This document shows positions 3,324 to 9,523 of a DNA stretch of 64,000 nt, piece after piece. The stretch covers positions 1 through 64,000 of IMG/VR virus record IMGVR_UViG_3300032319_000326, one strand, 5' to 3'. Position numbers and translations under genes: made by a program. The notes below the pieces were generated by a model. That model was given only the letters and a program-made list of their open reading frames with translations, had not been told where the DNA came from and made no database searches. Position 1 is the stretch's first letter; every line of letters begins with the position of its first letter. This DNA is from a virus. Lineage: Duplodnaviria; Caudoviricetes.

Positions 3324-3453
3324 GGAAGGTTTGAAACTCCATCTGTTGAACCTCCTCCAGTGAACCGAGTAATCGGCGATAAGGTAAAGTCTGGAAAAAT
3401 CAATTGATTGGTCCGTGGGTGTTATGTATCGATCCAGAACCCATAGGGCGATG
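3324..3453 (+). ncRNA. conserved structured leader RNA, copy 1 (family unknown)
   Basis: two sequence blocks shared with 9430-9523, with compensatory stem changes. Confidence 0.65.
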
Positions 3454-3509
3454 ACAGTATTACTGAGGTGATTACTGTGTTAAGGCAAATGAAAAGTAAT
3501 TTTCTAGAT

Positions 3510-3584
3510 GCCTCCTAAGCATAGGCAGCGATGCAGAGGTTTTGTAAACCCCAGAGTTCGGCGCAAGCCCGGAAGGAGGCTCCA
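3510..3584 (+). tRNA. tRNA-Thr(TGT)
   Basis: GCCTCCT/AGGAGGC acceptor, loop TT-TGT-AA, CCA; non-canonical T-loop. Confidence 0.8.
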
Positions 3585-3596
3585 ATTTATAGTAAT

Positions 3597-3675
3597 GGTG
3601 TATGTAGCATAACTGGAATAATGTCCCAGATTGTGAGTCTGGCAGATACGGGTTCGAATCCCGCCGTACACCCCA
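3597..3675 (+). tRNA. tRNA-His(GTG)
   Basis: G-1:C73, CCAGA-TTGTGAG-TCTGG, TTCGAAT loop, CCA. Confidence 0.9.
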
Positions 3676-3683
3676 ATTTTAAT

Positions 3684-3759
3684 TACCCTATCGTCTAGGT
3701 TTAGGACGGATGTGTTCTCTGAGACATCAACCTTGGTGAAAATCCAAGTGGGGTAACCA
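3684..3759 (+). tRNA. atypical tRNA, Gln(CTG)-like, 10-nt anticodon loop
   Basis: TACCCTA/TGGGGTA acceptor, GATGT-GTTCTCTGAG-ACATC, CCA. Confidence 0.6.
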
Positions 3760-3765
3760 ATTTAT

Positions 3766-3843
3766 GCTTCGGTGGTGAAAATGGATTTATCACGCAACGC
3801 TACGAACGTTGAGTTTGGGGTTCGAATCCTCACTGAAGCGCCA
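3766..3843 (+). tRNA. tRNA-Arg(ACG)
   Basis: full cloverleaf, CAACG-CTACGAA-CGTTG, CCA. Confidence 0.92.
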
Positions 3844-3849
3844 TTTAAT

Positions 3850-3924
3850 GGCCTATTCGACAACCAGCTAAGTCACTTGGCTTTCATCCAAGAGTAGCCG
3901 GGGCAGCACCGGCATAGGCTACCA
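3850..3924 (+). tRNA. tRNA-Glu(TTC)
   Basis: CTTGG-CTTTCAT-CCAAG, CCA; T-loop GGCAGCA. Confidence 0.85.
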
Positions 3925-3926
3925 TT

Positions 3927-4013
3927 TTTGACGGCACTGTAGGGTGCAGTCGTAAGCAAGATCACCCCTAGCATAATCTGAAACAGTGAAGCGTTAAGAT
4001 CTTGACCGTCAAA
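3927..4013 (+). ncRNA. stem-closed non-tRNA RNA with possible pseudoknot
   Basis: TTTGACGG/CCGTCAAA, CACTGT/ACAGTG and CAAGATC/GATCTTG complementarities. Confidence 0.5.
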
Positions 4014-4021
4014 TATTTCAT

Positions 4022-4079
4022 ATCCGCTAATGTTCCAAGGATTAGGCGACAGGCTCTCCAAAAGCCCGTGGGGCTACCA
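4022..4079 (+). pseudogene. truncated tRNA-Trp(CCA) paralogue lacking a T-arm
   Basis: 5' 19 nt identical to tRNA-Trp at 4350; GGCT-CTCCAAA-AGCC arm; ends ACCA. Confidence 0.6.
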
Positions 4080-4087
4080 TTTTAAAA

Positions 4088-4173
4088 GTGACGAGGGCAA
4101 CAAAGAGACTTAAACCCAAAAGATTGAAGGAGCCTTTCTAGACTGGTACTTCCTACTGGGGTAATCTCGTCAC
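4088..4173 (+). ncRNA. stem-closed non-tRNA RNA
   Basis: GTGACGAG/CTCGTCAC perfect 8-bp terminal helix, tRNA-sized. Confidence 0.4.
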
Positions 4174-4183
4174 AATATTTAAC

Positions 4184-4260
4184 GGTCGCATCGTCTATGT
4201 GTGATAGGACACCATCCTCTCAAGATGGAGAATAGGGTTCAAATCCCAATGCGACTACCA
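4184..4260 (+). tRNA. tRNA-Glu(CTC)
   Basis: CCATC-CTCTCAA-GATGG, TTCAAAT, CCA. Confidence 0.88.
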
Positions 4261-4265
4261 TTTTT

Positions 4266-6989: not shown

Positions 6990-7008
6990 TCATACTATTT
7001 ATTTGTGT

Positions 7009-7179
7009 ATGAACAAATCAAATCTCTATCAAAAGTTTTTGGAATTAAAAACAGAAATTGAAAAACATAAGTGGATAGAGAGTGAAAAAAGTGGTAATGA
7101 TATAGGATTTGAGACAGCGTTAGTGGATTGGATGTCTAAACATAGAAATGATTGGCGTGCAAGTATAAAACGAAAATAA
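7009..7179 (+). CDS. DUF4032-like small protein (56 aa, not in ORF track)
   Basis: hand translation ...EIEKHKWIESEKSGNDIGFETALVDWMSKHR... Confidence 0.75.
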   Translation: MNKSNLYQKFLELKTEIEKHKWIESEKSGNDIGFETALVDWMSKHRNDWRASIKRK

Positions 7180-7214
7180 ATGTAGTTAATTGATGTTTCT
7201 AATATTTATAAGAT

Positions 7215-7643
7215 ATGAATAAATCGGATTTAAAAAAATTAATCAAAGAATTAGCATTGGAAGTACTAACTGAAGATTATAAAGGTGAGCCGAATCATGA
7301 GGCAGAAGTAGAGAGTGATAAGTTAACAGCAACTCTTTCAGAAGATGATAAAGCTGCGGATATTGCTGATTTAGAGAAATTGTTAAAGAATCCAGATCCA
7401 AGTAGAGTAAAAGATTATGGTTCTATAGAAAACTATAAGAAAATGTTGATGGGTAAAATTGATCGATTAAAGAAACAAAAAAATGAAAGTGGAGATCCTT
7501 TTAGAGACATTGTGAAGAAGTATGCTAGTCTTTATAGAGACAGTGAACTCTCCCGTAGAGAAAAGGAAGATTATTTTAAATGGTTACAAACACATCAACC
7601 TGAAAAATTCAAAAAGGTTGTGGGTAAGCTTAAAAAGAAGTAA
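7215..7643 (+). CDS. hypothetical protein, putative head-packaged
   Basis: TATTTATA upstream; LKKLIKE...LTE leader. Confidence 0.8.
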   Translation: MNKSDLKKLIKELALEVLTEDYKGEPNHEAEVESDKLTATLSEDDKAADIADLEKLLKNPDPSRVKDYGSIENYKKMLMGKIDRLKKQKNESGDPFRDIVKKYASLYRDSELSRREKEDYFKWLQTHQPEKFKKVVGKLKKK

Positions 7644-7706
7644 AAATAGATATAAATTTAAACAAAGTGAAACGATTAATTTTAACATTAATCGTTTTAT
7701 TTTTTA

Positions 7707-7734
7707 TTGACAATCAACCTGTAACAAGTATAAT
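7707..7734 (+). promoter_or_regulatory. sigma70 promoter (TTGACA-N16-TATAAT)
   Basis: perfect hexamers before ORF 7746. Confidence 0.75.
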
Positions 7735-7745
7735 AAAAGTATAGT

Positions 7746-8066
7746 ATGAATGAACTAAGTAAAATTGATATGGCGAATTTAGTTTTTAGCAATGACAAGA
7801 AGGCTAAAATCAAGGATGTATTGTGTACAAAGTATGGTGCGACTGACGTGCAATATAGAGATCTATCATATGGTATCTGTATTGACGTAGTTGGAACTGA
7901 CAGTTTTAGATTTGTCAAGAATGCCATTTTAAAAACATTAGATGTTCAAGAAGAAACGTTATCTGTTTTGGGAGAGAGCAAACGAAGTATGAAAGCTTCT
8001 TATGTTTATTTGCCTGAAAAAGATAAAGTTTTGAATAAACGTCTCAAACGTGCGAAAACCATTTAA
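7746..8066 (+). CDS. hypothetical protein
   Basis: 106-aa ORF after a promoter. Confidence 0.75.
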   Translation: MNELSKIDMANLVFSNDKKAKIKDVLCTKYGATDVQYRDLSYGICIDVVGTDSFRFVKNAILKTLDVQEETLSVLGESKRSMKASYVYLPEKDKVLNKRLKRAKTI

Positions 8067-8209
8067 TTATATAAAAAAGTTATTATAAATTATAATAACT
8101 ATATATAACTGATAAATTTCGAAAGGTGCATTTTTGACTTTTCGGATAACGTTAAGCTGTTCTTAACGTAGTTAGTAAACATAAATAAAAAAATAAAGGA
8201 TAGTTAAAT

Positions 8210-8923
8210 ATGAAGAAAGTATTAGTATTATTGTCATTGTTGACAGCTCTAGCGGTAACTGCTGGAGATAACTCAAACCTCTCAGTGGAAGCTGGGTATA
8301 ACAGTCAATACATTGTAAATGGTGTAGCTCGTTCAGAAGCAACTCCATTTGTTGGTGTGGGTGCTGTAAAGAGTCTAAAGTATGCGGATGTATACTTGGG
8401 TGGTACTCTTTTGGTTAATGGTGACCAAGATCAGTCACACTGGACGTTGGGTACTGGTAAAGAAGTTGATGTATGGAAGGATGTATTTTCCGCCCGTGCT
8501 GATGCTACTGTAACCCGTCATCAAACAGGTGGTAGTTTTGGAATTCCAAATAGTACTGAATTTGGTGTGAAGTTGGCTCTACCAAACAAGTTGGCTACTC
8601 CATATGTACGTGGTGCATTTGACATTGATCTAGATCAAAAAGGTGCATTTGTTGGTATTGAACGTGCTCAAAAGTTGCCATTTGGTTTCGTAATTACGAC
8701 TGGTGTTGAATATGGTAAAGTATTTGGCACAACCAGCGATTTCACTGCTGTAAATGCTAAAGCAACATTGACTCGTCCATTTGAATTTTCATTTGGTGTG
8801 TTGACTCCATTTGCTACTGTTGGATGGTATGATAATAATTTCAAGGTTGGAAATTATAATTGGGCAACCCGTGAATTTAGTGGTGATGTAGTATATTCCG
8901 GTGGTTTGAGATTGACATTCTAA
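8210..8923 (+). CDS. outer-membrane beta-barrel (porin-like) protein
   Basis: signal peptide, alternating amphipathic strands, C-terminal GLRLTF beta-signal. Confidence 0.8.
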   Translation: MKKVLVLLSLLTALAVTAGDNSNLSVEAGYNSQYIVNGVARSEATPFVGVGAVKSLKYADVYLGGTLLVNGDQDQSHWTLGTGKEVDVWKDVFSARADATVTRHQTGGSFGIPNSTEFGVKLALPNKLATPYVRGAFDIDLDQKGAFVGIERAQKLPFGFVITTGVEYGKVFGTTSDFTAVNAKATLTRPFEFSFGVLTPFATVGWYDNNFKVGNYNWATREFSGDVVYSGGLRLTF

Positions 8924-8946
8924 TCTAGACTAAAATAGTGTATGAT

Positions 8947-8974
8947 AACCCGCTTAGAAATAAACGGGTTTTTT
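8947..8974 (+). terminator. intrinsic terminator
   Basis: AACCCG/CGGGTT plus T-run. Confidence 0.7.
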
Positions 8975-9017
8975 CATTTTTAATGATCTATTTATAATTA
9001 AAGAAAGGTTTATTTTT

Positions 9018-9209
9018 ATGTCATATAATACAGGAAGCAGTGGTTCAAATGGTTCAAATGGAAACAATCAACAATTAAAATCAAACACAAGCAGTTCAAG
9101 TGGAACTTCTAAAACAAGTGGGTCAAATGGATCACGTGGGTCTAACGGATCCAATGGTTCAAATGGAAGTAATGGAAGTGCTTGGTATAAAAAATTGTTT
9201 GGAAAATAA
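9018..9209 (+). CDS. low-complexity (GSN)n peptide
   Basis: SD-like AAGG and TATTTATA upstream; codon-diverged NGS repeats. Confidence 0.65.
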   Translation: MSYNTGSSGSNGSNGNNQQLKSNTSSSSGTSKTSGSNGSRGSNGSNGSNGSNGSAWYKKLFGK

Positions 9210-9339
9210 TAAAAATTTATTGATTAGTCATTCTGAATACTATATATTAGTAACAATATGAATTTAATTTCACAACCTAGTCAAGCCAGTCAACTCCCAT
9301 CTGGAAGTTGAAGGCGAGGTTGTTTGCTCTTAAAGAACC

Positions 9340-9374
9340 AACCCGTCACTTCAAAAAAAGAATGATGGGTTTTT
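9340..9374 (+). terminator. intrinsic terminator
   Basis: AACCCGTCA/TGATGGGTT plus T-run. Confidence 0.6.
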
Positions 9375-9386
9375 GATTTTTAGGTG

Positions 9387-9414
9387 TTGACAATTTGAGA
9401 AGGTGTGGTAAATT
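9387..9414 (+). promoter_or_regulatory. sigma70 promoter of tRNA array 2 (TTGACA-N16-TAAATT, extended TG)
   Basis: hexamers upstream of leader RNA copy 2. Confidence 0.7.
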
Positions 9415-9429
9415 AGAAATATAACGAAC

Positions 9430-9523
9430 GGGGTTGAAACTCTATCTGATGTCCCCAACATAAGTTAAAACATTTGATCGGTCACTGGGTGTTATGCTGA
9501 AATACAGAACCCATCTGGCGATA
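9430..9523 (+). ncRNA. conserved structured leader RNA, copy 2
   Basis: homologous to 3324-3453. Confidence 0.65.

What the first reader, a model, noticed from the sequence alone, without database searches (positions are those of the whole stretch)
3324..9523. Same structured leader RNA opens both tRNA arrays
Seen: directly after each array promoter (3324-3453 and 9430-9523) lie two conserved blocks. Hairpin 1 has loop TGAAACTCyATCTGwTG closed by different stems (GGAAGGTT/AACCTCC versus GGGGT/TCCCC). Hairpin 2 reads TTGATyGGTCnnTGGGTGTTATG-N8-CAGAACCCATnnGGCGAT with a C-G to A-T compensatory change and T-loop-like apices (ATCGAT versus CTGAAAT). The linker length varies. I recognise no named family. 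Known: HK022 put RNAs are two-hairpin promoter-proximal antiterminators, and T-loop modules in T-box RNA and RNase P bind tRNA elbows. Inference: a cis-acting antitermination, processing or tRNA-sensing RNA for long, T-run-rich tRNA operons.
Basis: partly seen in the sequence, partly recalled or inferred. Interest (0 to 1): 0.78.

Follow-up and report, generated by a model that had tools for sequence, protein, structure and literature searches.

The report
Pseudoknotted leader RNA heading phage tRNA operons
Both large tRNA operons of this uncultured freshwater phage begin with a copy of one conserved, knotted RNA of about 95-135 bases that matches no catalogued RNA family; the fold is well supported, but its job, most likely helping the polymerase or the processing enzymes through the long tRNA operon, is still untested.

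Summary
Two paralogous leaders (3324-3452 and 9430-9522) follow sigma-70-type promoters and precede the two tRNA arrays. They are the only copies in the 91.7-kb phage genome.

A covariance model finds 66 copies. All lie on uncultured freshwater phage contigs, apart from two short contigs filed under MAGs. None lies in a real bacterial genome or in phage HK022. Rfam 15 has no match, even at E<=10.

Both hairpins are supported by compensatory changes. A new result is that "hairpin 1" is not a plain hairpin. The 3' half of its loop (AUCUGDUG) pairs with CAHUUGAU just before hairpin 2. One pair takes three states (A-U, G-C, U-A) in 33 of 33 distinct sequences. The core is therefore an H-type pseudoknot plus an irregular hairpin with an invariant bulge.

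The T-loop, tRNA-elbow idea fails, because the apices vary freely.

Position is conserved. A promoter ends 17-27 nt upstream (mostly 20-21) and a tRNA follows within 35-62 nt. In one lineage a tRNA and a small ORF separate the leader from the promoter.

Function is unproven. I favour a cis-acting, co-transcriptional role like put or EAR (about 0.33), over a released small RNA or a 5'-end or processing device.

The parts
3150..3188 (+). Intrinsic terminator (10-bp stem plus T-run) that closes the upstream unit just before the array-1 promoters
   Evidence: The same terminator-promoter layout occurs upstream of type A leaders in relatives.
3193..3220 (+). Distal promoter of array 1 (TTGACG-16-TAAAGT with TGn). 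It is homologous to the array-2 promoter.
   Evidence: Tandem promoters are conserved in most type A loci.
3283..3310 (+). Proximal promoter of array 1 (TTGACA-16-TAGACT with TGn). Its -10 hexamer ends 21 nt before the invariant loop.
3324..3353 (+). Copy 1 (type A), pseudoknot 5' part. P1 stem is 3327-3331 with 3349-3353. Invariant single strand L1 is 3332-3340 (UGAAACUCC). Pseudoknot 5' strand is 3341-3348 (AUCUGUUG).
   Evidence: Alignment A2. Pair counts. RNAalifold predicts P1 independently.
3354..3400 (+). Type A linker (pseudoknot loop 3). Outer helix CCAG/CUGG is 3357-3360 with 3391-3394. Inner GNRA-capped hairpin is 3365-3376. The 3' end is A-rich.
   Evidence: helices 2 and 3; pairs 43-54 and 45-52 show compensatory changes. 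L096 replaces CCAG/CUGG by GAGAU/AUCUC.
3401..3408 (+). Pseudoknot 3' strand of copy 1 (CAAUUGAU)
   Evidence: Column pair 24-82 is GC in 13, UA in 13 and AU in 7 sequences, with 0 unpaired.
3409..3452 (+). Copy 1, hairpin P2. Helices GUCC/GGGC and UGGGU/ACCCA, an invariant 2-nt bulge (GU), UAUG/CAGA with an A.G mismatch, and a variable apex.
   Evidence: Compensatory changes occur at four pairs.
3454..3478 (+). Type A-only third hairpin (P3) with a YGAG loop. It overlaps a Shine-Dalgarno-like GAGGUGAU and a GUG mini-ORF.
   Evidence: Read. The stem covaries between relatives (ACAG/CUGU versus ACGG/CCGU; AAUUGC/GCAAUU). It is not part of the shared core.
9340..9383 (+). Terminator (9-bp stem, 14-nt loop, T-run) that ends operon 1 just before the array-2 promoter
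   Evidence: Read. It is homologous to 3150-3188. The scan misses it because the loop exceeds 8 nt.
9387..9414 (+). Promoter of array 2 (TTGACA-16-TAAATT with TGn). Its -10 hexamer ends 20 nt before the invariant loop.
9430..9456 (+). Copy 2 (type B), pseudoknot 5' part. P1 is GGGG 9430-9433 with CCCC 9453-9456. L1 is 9435-9443. Pseudoknot 5' strand is 9444-9451 (AUCUGAUG).
   Evidence: The R1 hit 9426-9524 scores 112 bits.
9457..9478 (+). Copy 2, short A-rich linker with a mini-hairpin (9457-9470) and the pseudoknot 3' strand CAUUUGAU (9471-9478)
9479..9522 (+). Copy 2, hairpin P2
3598..3675 (+). First ARAGORN-called tRNA (His) after leader 1. A tRNA-Thr-like element not called by ARAGORN lies between them (about 3510-3592).
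   Evidence: Relatives carry tRNA-Thr 58-62 nt after P2.
9554..9629 (+). First tRNA (Val) after leader 2. It starts 41 nt after the conserved ACCCA of P2 (31 nt after the helix closes at 9522).

Best explanation
The two blocks are paralogous copies of an uncatalogued structured RNA domain. Its core is an H-type pseudoknot: P1, an invariant 9-10-nt single strand UUGAAACUCY, an 8-pair second helix and an A-rich third loop. An irregular hairpin P2 with an invariant GW bulge and an A.G mismatch follows directly.

The domain is transcribed as the first element of each of the two ~6-kb tRNA-rich operons in a clade of uncultured freshwater myoviruses. Shown here: the fold, its conservation and its fixed place at operon heads.

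Inferred, not shown: it acts in cis and co-transcriptionally. As it emerges from RNA polymerase it would bind the elongation complex, or a factor riding on it. That would make the complex resistant to pausing and termination across a long, largely untranslated stretch in which every tRNA ends in a stable stem followed by a U-rich tract. This is the way HK022 put and Bacillus EAR RNAs work. RNase P cutting at the first tRNA would then detach it.
For: Real, selected RNA structure:
- 95% of cells are paired, against <=51% when partners are slid. Eight pairs carry compensatory changes.
- The pseudoknot pair 24-82 takes three Watson-Crick states with no exception in 33 distinct sequences.
- RNAalifold recovers P1 and P2 on its own.
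- L1, the bulge and the pseudoknot strands are invariant, while promoter spacers, linkers, apices and 3' tails diverge.

Position argues for a cis role at the operon head:
- 66 model hits exist.
- In 35 of 43 tabulated hits a TTGACA/TGn promoter ends 17-27 nt (mostly 20-21) before the loop, and tRNAs follow.
- No copy sits inside or at the end of an array, although the arrays are heavily shuffled and invaded by homing endonucleases.
- A terminator directly upstream insulates each unit.
- There are two paralogues per genome, one per operon, as with putL and putR (PMC9378689).
- In the type C lineage the leader still works as a module about 330 nt from the promoter. putR likewise lies about 270 nt from PR.

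Substrate that might need help:
- 16 of 16 tRNA genes are followed by a T-rich tract, against a 22% background.
- Operon 2 runs about 5.7 kb to the terminator after the tmRNA.
- RNA-only processive antiterminators exist, and they carry tertiary structure (put triplex; EAR).
Against: - No read-through has been measured.
- The scan found no canonical intrinsic terminator inside either operon on the + strand, so there is no obvious target.
- A conserved terminator ends operon 1 at 9340-9383. A fully put-like, 10-kb-processive modification of the polymerase would be expected to ignore it.
- Consensus promoters without a leader lie inside the unit (4547-4576, 7707-7734), so tRNA transcription does not strictly need the element.
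- The U-tracts start 4 nt after the acceptor stem and are more simply RNase E-type processing sites.
- There is no homology to put, no boxA and no EAR or other Rfam match.
- The host and its RNA polymerase are unknown.
Confidence: 0.33

Rival explanations
1. Stand-alone small RNA. The leader is simply the first gene of the array. RNase P (at the first tRNA) and RNase E (in the AU-rich spacer) release it. It then acts in trans as a stable RNA, for example as a decoy or sponge for a host or phage protein. L1 and the P2 bulge would be the binding surface.
For: A tRNA or tRNA-like element follows within 35-62 nt in nearly all copies. The junction (AAUUUUUAAAU) looks like the inter-tRNA spacers. 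Invariant single-stranded and bulge nucleotides fit recognition by a protein. RNA-library contigs of relatives cover the leaders together with the neighbouring tRNAs (weak, because contigs also include promoter DNA). From general knowledge, phage tRNA clusters are known to carry other stable small RNAs, such as T4 species 1 and 2 (rnaC, rnaD).
Against: If position did not matter, copies should turn up inside or at the ends of the shuffled arrays. None of 66 does. Spacing from the promoter is tightly kept. No excess of sites complementary to L1 exists in the phage genome: 22 including 3 self-hits, against 16.7 +/- 3.5 in shuffles. That speaks against base-pairing targets in the phage itself.
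Confidence: 0.25
2. 5'-end guard or processing platform. The compact pseudoknot at the extreme 5' end shields the primary transcript from 5'-end-dependent decay (RppH/RNase E, or RNase J in some hosts). Alternatively it positions RNase P or E for orderly maturation of the first tRNAs.
For: P1 begins only about 5-10 nt from the predicted start site. Pseudoknots are classic blocks to exonucleases (general knowledge). The element is always followed closely by a tRNA.
Against: A guard needs stable structure, not an invariant 10-nt single strand and an invariant bulge. In the type C lineage the element is internal, about 330 nt from the 5' end. tRNAs are released quickly and are stable on their own.
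Confidence: 0.18
3. Sensor RNA. A riboswitch-like aptamer, or the first reader's tRNA sensor, tunes tRNA-operon output.
For: A pseudoknot plus a hairpin with invariant unpaired nucleotides is a common aptamer architecture (general knowledge).
Against: There is no expression platform: no terminator or antiterminator alternative or sequestered RBS follows P2 in type B. No Rfam riboswitch or T-box match was found. The supposed T-loop apices are hypervariable.
Confidence: 0.07
4. Self-cleaving ribozyme that trims the 5' end of the operon transcript.
For: A hairpin loop pairing with a downstream strand recalls the pistol ribozyme layout (from my own knowledge). Ribozymes are frequent in phage non-coding regions.
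Against: No match to hammerhead, twister, pistol, hatchet or HDV models even at E<=10. The strand order differs from pistol and from HDV. CUGDUG varies at the position that would be the hammerhead's invariant A6.
Confidence: 0.04

Closest known systems
HK022 putL/putR RNAs (RNA-only processive antitermination and antipausing)
   Same: Phage-encoded, with two paralogous copies per genome, one per early operon. Each lies just after the promoter or a few hundred nt downstream. Each is a compact two-domain fold with tertiary structure in the first domain (put: minor-groove triplex; here: pseudoknot with A-rich loop 3). No dedicated protein gene is evident (PMC9378689).
   Different: No sequence or model similarity: the best R1 hit in HK022 scores 11 bits and lies in the cI start/OR region, not at a put site. 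This RNA is 90-135 nt rather than about 70. It heads tRNA operons of a myovirus, not lambdoid early mRNAs. No canonical internal terminators were found. Activity is untested.
EAR (eps-associated RNA) of Bacillales
   Same: A cis-acting structured RNA that lets polymerase read through distal terminators of a long operon. It can sit inside the operon, as the type C copies do.
   Different: No Rfam match. The host group, operon type and fold are different.
rrn/lambda nut leaders (boxA-boxB, Nus-factor antitermination of untranslated rRNA/tRNA operons)
   Same: A leader element at the head of a long untranslated stable-RNA operon.
   Different: No boxA in either leader. boxA-like matches in the window are at chance level, 98 against 94 expected. 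This fold is a pseudoknot, not a linear boxA plus a small boxB hairpin.
T4 gene 32 mRNA 5' pseudoknot
   Same: An H-type pseudoknot at the 5' end of a transcript in a T4-type phage, followed by an AU-rich unstructured stretch (from my own knowledge).
   Different: That element nucleates gp32 binding to repress translation of a protein gene. Here no ORF follows, and no sequence similarity was detected. Not tested beyond Rfam.

Membership tests
HK022 put RNA | Sequence and structure homology to putL/putR | tested here: not met
   R1 was searched over the whole HK022 genome with filters off. The best hit scores 11.2 bits (E 0.69) at 29098-29176. That is the start of a minus-strand ORF that I read as cI, plus the region I read as OR/PR, not a put site.
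HK022 put RNA | Two stem-loops of about 70 nt with a triplex in stem I | tested here: inconclusive
   There are two domains, but domain 1 is an H-type pseudoknot and the whole is 90-135 nt. Tertiary contacts cannot be modelled here.
HK022 put RNA | Located downstream of early promoters, one copy per operon | tested here: met
HK022 put RNA | Suppresses downstream terminators and pauses by binding the RNA polymerase beta' zinc-binding domain | not testable with these tools
   Needs transcription assays. The scan shows no canonical internal terminator on the + strand.
EAR / any Rfam 15 family (riboswitches, T-box, ribozymes, RNase P, tmRNA, tRNA) | Covariance-model match | tested here: not met
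   No hit in either leader at gathering score or at E<=10, also when only the leaders were given.
boxA/nut-type antitermination leader | boxA consensus GCUCUUUAACAA in the leader | tested here: not met
   No match with <=3 mismatches inside 3317-3460 or 9421-9530. The window-wide count is at chance.
T-loop module (tRNA-elbow binder, as in T-box and RNase P) | Conserved 5-nt T-loop at the hairpin apex | tested here: not met
   The P2 apex has at least 12 different 6-8-nt sequences with no common U..RA pattern.
Protein-coding mini-gene in hairpin 2 | Conserved reading frame | tested here: not met
   The apex length varies (6, 7 or 8 nt), which shifts the frame after the AUG.

The most novel reading that the evidence does not exclude
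This is a third, independent class of RNA-only processive antiterminator or antipausing element, after put and EAR. It would be the first dedicated to tRNA operons and the first in T4-type myoviruses. A pseudoknot-plus-hairpin RNA would load onto the elongation complex right after promoter escape. This may be helped by a -10-like GAAACT at about +16 to +22, as with putL's NANNAT at +23 to +28. It would then carry the polymerase through kilobases of untranslated, stem-plus-U-tract-rich RNA genes.
Probability: 0.25. Interest if true: 0.85.

Novelty: new variant of a known kind. Interest (0 to 1): 0.62.

Why it matters
How phages secure transcription and maturation of long tRNA arrays is hardly studied. 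These arrays are untranslated, highly structured and full of U-tracts.

This element offers a small, sharply defined handle for experiments. It has an invariant single strand, a bulge and a pseudoknot pair with natural compensatory variants. Natural controls also exist: a lineage where the leader is displaced from the promoter, and promoters without a leader.

If it modifies RNA polymerase, it would add a new class to the very short list of RNA-only antiterminators, and could be used as a portable part. If it is a released small RNA, it would point to an unknown host or phage protein target. Either way it deserves an Rfam entry.

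Tried and rejected
- INPHARED phages: megablast and blastn with the region and with leader 1 gave no relative. The clade has no cultured member in that collection.
- Genome scan of 185,579 species with a leader pattern: 37 loci. The model confirmed only two, both on 3-kb contigs filed under MAGs, which I take to be phage contigs binned by mistake. The rest are chance.
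- Loop-only pattern in IMG/VR: all new loci are chance matches inside genes, except L118, a truncated copy at a contig edge. The family could not be extended beyond the clade by exact words.
- Metatranscriptomes: four riverine RNA runs hold contigs over both leaders and the adjacent tRNAs of relatives. One is a 150-nt contig, 9426-9575, with no mismatch. Several contigs also run upstream through promoter and terminator, and contigs cannot show ends or levels. This is neither proof of transcription nor of a discrete RNA.
- Coding reading of hairpin 2: rejected because the frame is not kept.
- CRISPR-repeat mimic (the UUGAAAC resembles a crRNA 5' handle): rejected. The bases 5' of it covary with the 3' strand of P1 across the loop, and only about 10-15 nt precede it from the start site.
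- Hammerhead reading of GAAAC...CUGAUG: rejected, because the A6 position varies and there are no stems I and III.
- D-arm complementarity of the loop to the next tRNA-Val (CUCUAUC with GAUAGAG): not kept in relatives whose tRNA-Val has a different D-loop.
- Trans targets in the phage genome: no enrichment.
- Single-sequence folding: not better than shuffles.
- The weak R1 hit in HK022 shares an 11-mer (UCUGUUGAACC) with type A. It lies in the cI start codon and operator region, and about 2 such matches are expected by chance.

Full report
**What the window is.** The window is the first 64 kb of a single 91,733-bp contig with 32% G+C. It encodes a tail sheath, an SbcC-like nuclease, a primase and several homing endonucleases. 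I read it as a contractile-tailed phage. Earlier notes of this scan call it T4-like. ARAGORN finds 16 tRNA genes in two main arrays, 3598-5634 and 9554-12500. Rfam adds a tmRNA at 14660-15045. No cultured phage in INPHARED resembles the region. DNA runs that hold parts of it are lake, river and drinking-water metagenomes.

**The observation.** Both leaders exist as described.
- The hairpin-2 core matches twice, against 0 expected by chance.
- The hairpin-1 loop is exact at both places.
- The whole genome holds no third copy.
- Each copy follows a TTGACA...TGn-TAnnnT promoter and precedes tRNAs.
- An intrinsic terminator lies directly upstream of each promoter. Copy 1 has two tandem promoters.
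- This terminator-promoter(s)-leader layout is kept in relatives.

**Relatives.** Exact-word scans of IMG/VR with three leader patterns gave about 60 loci that hold the element. I aligned 33 distinct sequences (A2) and built covariance model R1.
- R1 finds 66 copies at 57-113 bits in the 98 sources held, and nothing else above 19 bits.
- Two hits come from the 185,579-genome collection. Both lie on 3-kb contigs filed under MAGs. The other 35 loci from that scan are chance.
- A loop-only pattern brought only chance matches inside genes, plus one truncated copy at a contig edge.
- The family, as far as these tools reach, is confined to one clade of uncultured freshwater phages.
- Three forms occur. 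Type A is long, like copy 1. Type B is short, like copy 2. Type C has almost no linker.

**Structure.** P1 and P2 are supported.
- 95% of cells are paired, against 31-51% when partners are slid by 1-3 columns. Eight pairs carry changes on both sides.
- Examples are P1 pair 8-28 (GC, CG, UA) and P2 pairs 93-125 (AU, CG), 95-122, 96-121 and 105-114 (GC, CG).
- RNAalifold predicts the same two helices unaided.
- More variants keep pairing in the enlarged set (UAGGU/ACCUA, CUGGU/ACCAG, CCGGU/ACCGG). The type A linker helix CCAG/CUGG is replaced by GAGAU/AUCUC in L096.

**The pseudoknot (new).** The 3' half of the 17-nt "loop" of hairpin 1, AUCUGDUG, is complementary to CAHUUGAU, which lies immediately 5' of P2.
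- The variable position D pairs with H in all 33 distinct sequences: G-C in 13, U-A in 13, A-U in 7, and none unpaired.
- The 13 further sequences agree by eye.
- The result is a classical H-type pseudoknot. P1 has 4-5 pairs, with two invariant G-C pairs. Loop 1 is UUGAAACUCY and is invariant. Helix 2 has 8 positions with one U.U. No nucleotide separates helix 2 from the 3' strand of P1.
- Loop 3 ranges from 5 nt (type C) to 47 nt (type A, folded into its own hairpins) and always ends A-rich.
- The last two pseudoknot pairs compete with the three outermost P2 pairs (AUY/GAU). These bases are invariant or change on one side only, so I cannot tell which forms.
- P2 carries an invariant 2-nt bulge (G, then U or A), followed by U-A, A.G, U-A and a G-C/C-G pair. 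The apex is free to vary in sequence and length (6-8 nt).
- That variation excludes both a reading frame and a T-loop.
- Single-sequence energies are no better than shuffles.

**Context.**
- In 35 of the 43 hits tabulated, a promoter's -10 hexamer ends 17-27 nt before loop 1, mostly 20 or 21 nt. P1 therefore starts within about 10 nt of the predicted start site.
- The first tRNA follows about 40 nt after the ACCCA of P2 in type B (Val-Pro-Leu...) and 58-62 nt after it in type A (Thr-His-...). A tRNA-like element not called by ARAGORN fills that place in the window and in some relatives.
- The type C contigs differ (L018, L024, L031, L039, L040, and similarly L044 and L053). There the promoter is followed at once by another tRNA-Val, then a 54-codon ORF, then the leader, then the array. 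The leader can thus sit about 330 nt into the transcript, but it still precedes the bulk of the tRNAs.
- No copy lies within or behind an array.
- Operon 1 runs from about 3317 to the terminator at 9340-9383 and includes seven ORFs. Operon 2 runs from about 9421 to a strong terminator right after the tmRNA, about 15081-15112.
- The scan detects no canonical + strand terminator between each leader and the terminator that ends its operon.
- All 16 tRNA genes are followed by a T-rich tract, against a 22% background.
- Two consensus promoters without a leader lie inside operon 1.

**Comparison with known systems.**
- Rfam 15 gives no match in or near the leaders. This holds at gathering score, at E<=10 on 10 kb, and at E<=10 on the leaders alone. 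That excludes catalogued riboswitches, T-boxes, ribozymes, EAR, RNase P and tRNA-like families.
- The motif strings occur in no paper of the library, except as unrelated primers.
- HK022 put RNAs are about 70 nt with two stem-loops and a triplex in stem I. One copy follows each early promoter (putL adjacent, putR about 270 nt downstream). They act without protein by binding the beta' zinc-binding domain (PMC9378689).
- The layout parallel with put is real, but R1 finds nothing at put sites. Its best hit (11 bits) lies over the start of a minus-strand ORF that I read as cI and the adjacent OR/PR region.
- boxA is absent.
- EAR shows that such elements may lie inside operons (PMC7858274).

**Mechanism.** What is shown: a selected, knotted RNA domain with invariant unpaired nucleotides, fixed at the head of tRNA operons. 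What is inferred: its action.
- I favour a cis, co-transcriptional effect on the elongation complex (0.33). The reasons are that only the position at the operon head is kept through extensive array shuffling, spacing to the promoter is tight, each operon has its own copy behind an insulating terminator, and the downstream RNA is long, untranslated and rich in stem-plus-U-tract units.
- Against it: the lack of canonical internal terminators, a conserved terminator at the end of operon 1 that a fully processive modification should override, leaderless internal promoters, and no homology to any antiterminator.
- A released stable small RNA (0.25) and a 5'-end guard or processing platform (0.18) explain parts of the picture.
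- A sensor (0.07) lacks an expression platform, and a ribozyme (0.04) lacks any model match.
- GAAACT in loop 1 has the two key -10 positions (A2, T6) and lies at about +16 to +22. This recalls putL's -10-like element at +23 to +28. It is only a lead.

**RNA evidence.** Four riverine metatranscriptome assemblies contain contigs covering both leaders with their neighbouring tRNAs. The ORF-rich stretches 5636-8171 and 9757-10390 are nearly empty. Some contigs also cross promoters and terminators, those ORFs may simply be variable among relatives, and contigs give no ends or levels. I do not count this as evidence.

**Verdict.** The finding is a real, apparently undescribed RNA family with a better-defined architecture than first read (pseudoknot plus hairpin). 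The tRNA-elbow idea is not supported, and antitermination remains a reasonable but untested hypothesis. My sequence look-ups did not link it to this family, so it may be the same idea in a different family.

Noticed in passing
window 3510-3592: A tRNA-Thr(UGU)-like element lies between leader 1 and tRNA-His. It has a 7-bp acceptor stem, a CCA end and anticodon loop UUUGUAA, but an aberrant T-loop (CGCAAGC). ARAGORN and the Rfam tRNA model do not call it. Relatives have a regular tRNA-Thr at this place.
   Followed up: partly
window 3454-3520: The type A-only hairpin P3 exposes a strong Shine-Dalgarno-like GAGGUGAU, followed by a GUG mini-ORF. The ORF has 13 codons here and only 2-8 codons in relatives. 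It may be a translated mini-gene or a coincidence of the YGAG loop.
   Followed up: partly
window 3598-12500 (all 16 tRNA genes): Every tRNA gene is followed immediately by a T-rich tract (4-7 T in 8 nt; background 22%). These are probably RNase E-type processing sites or weak pause or termination sites.
   Followed up: yes
window 15081-15112: A strong intrinsic terminator (CCCCGG...CCGGGG plus T7) lies directly after the tmRNA gene and marks the end of operon 2. The consensus scan missed it.
   Followed up: no
window 4547-4640: A perfect 12/12 consensus promoter lies inside array 1, followed by a ~60-nt leader with GUUGAAAUCC. In three of four riverine RNA assemblies the bin 4368-4684 has by far the highest contig depth (550-870, against 5-50 elsewhere).
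   Followed up: no
L024:2820-3135 and L040:12170-12490: In some relatives a cassette sits between the array-2 promoter and the leader. It consists of a second, different tRNA-Val and a 54-codon ORF (starting MENNVDKD...). The ORF's function is unknown.
   Followed up: partly
L008 and L010 (same IMG/VR contig); also L042 and L051: Type A and type B copies can share the same P2 tip (CUGAAAUA, or the GUUAUC-CUCGUA-GAGAAC module). This suggests gene conversion between the two paralogues within genomes.
   Followed up: no
window 9778-10656 and 11449-12006: Homing-endonuclease-type ORFs (DUF559/REase-like, and HNH) are inserted between tRNA genes of array 2. Relatives lack the first one: RNA and DNA contigs join 9637 to 10641.
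   Followed up: partly
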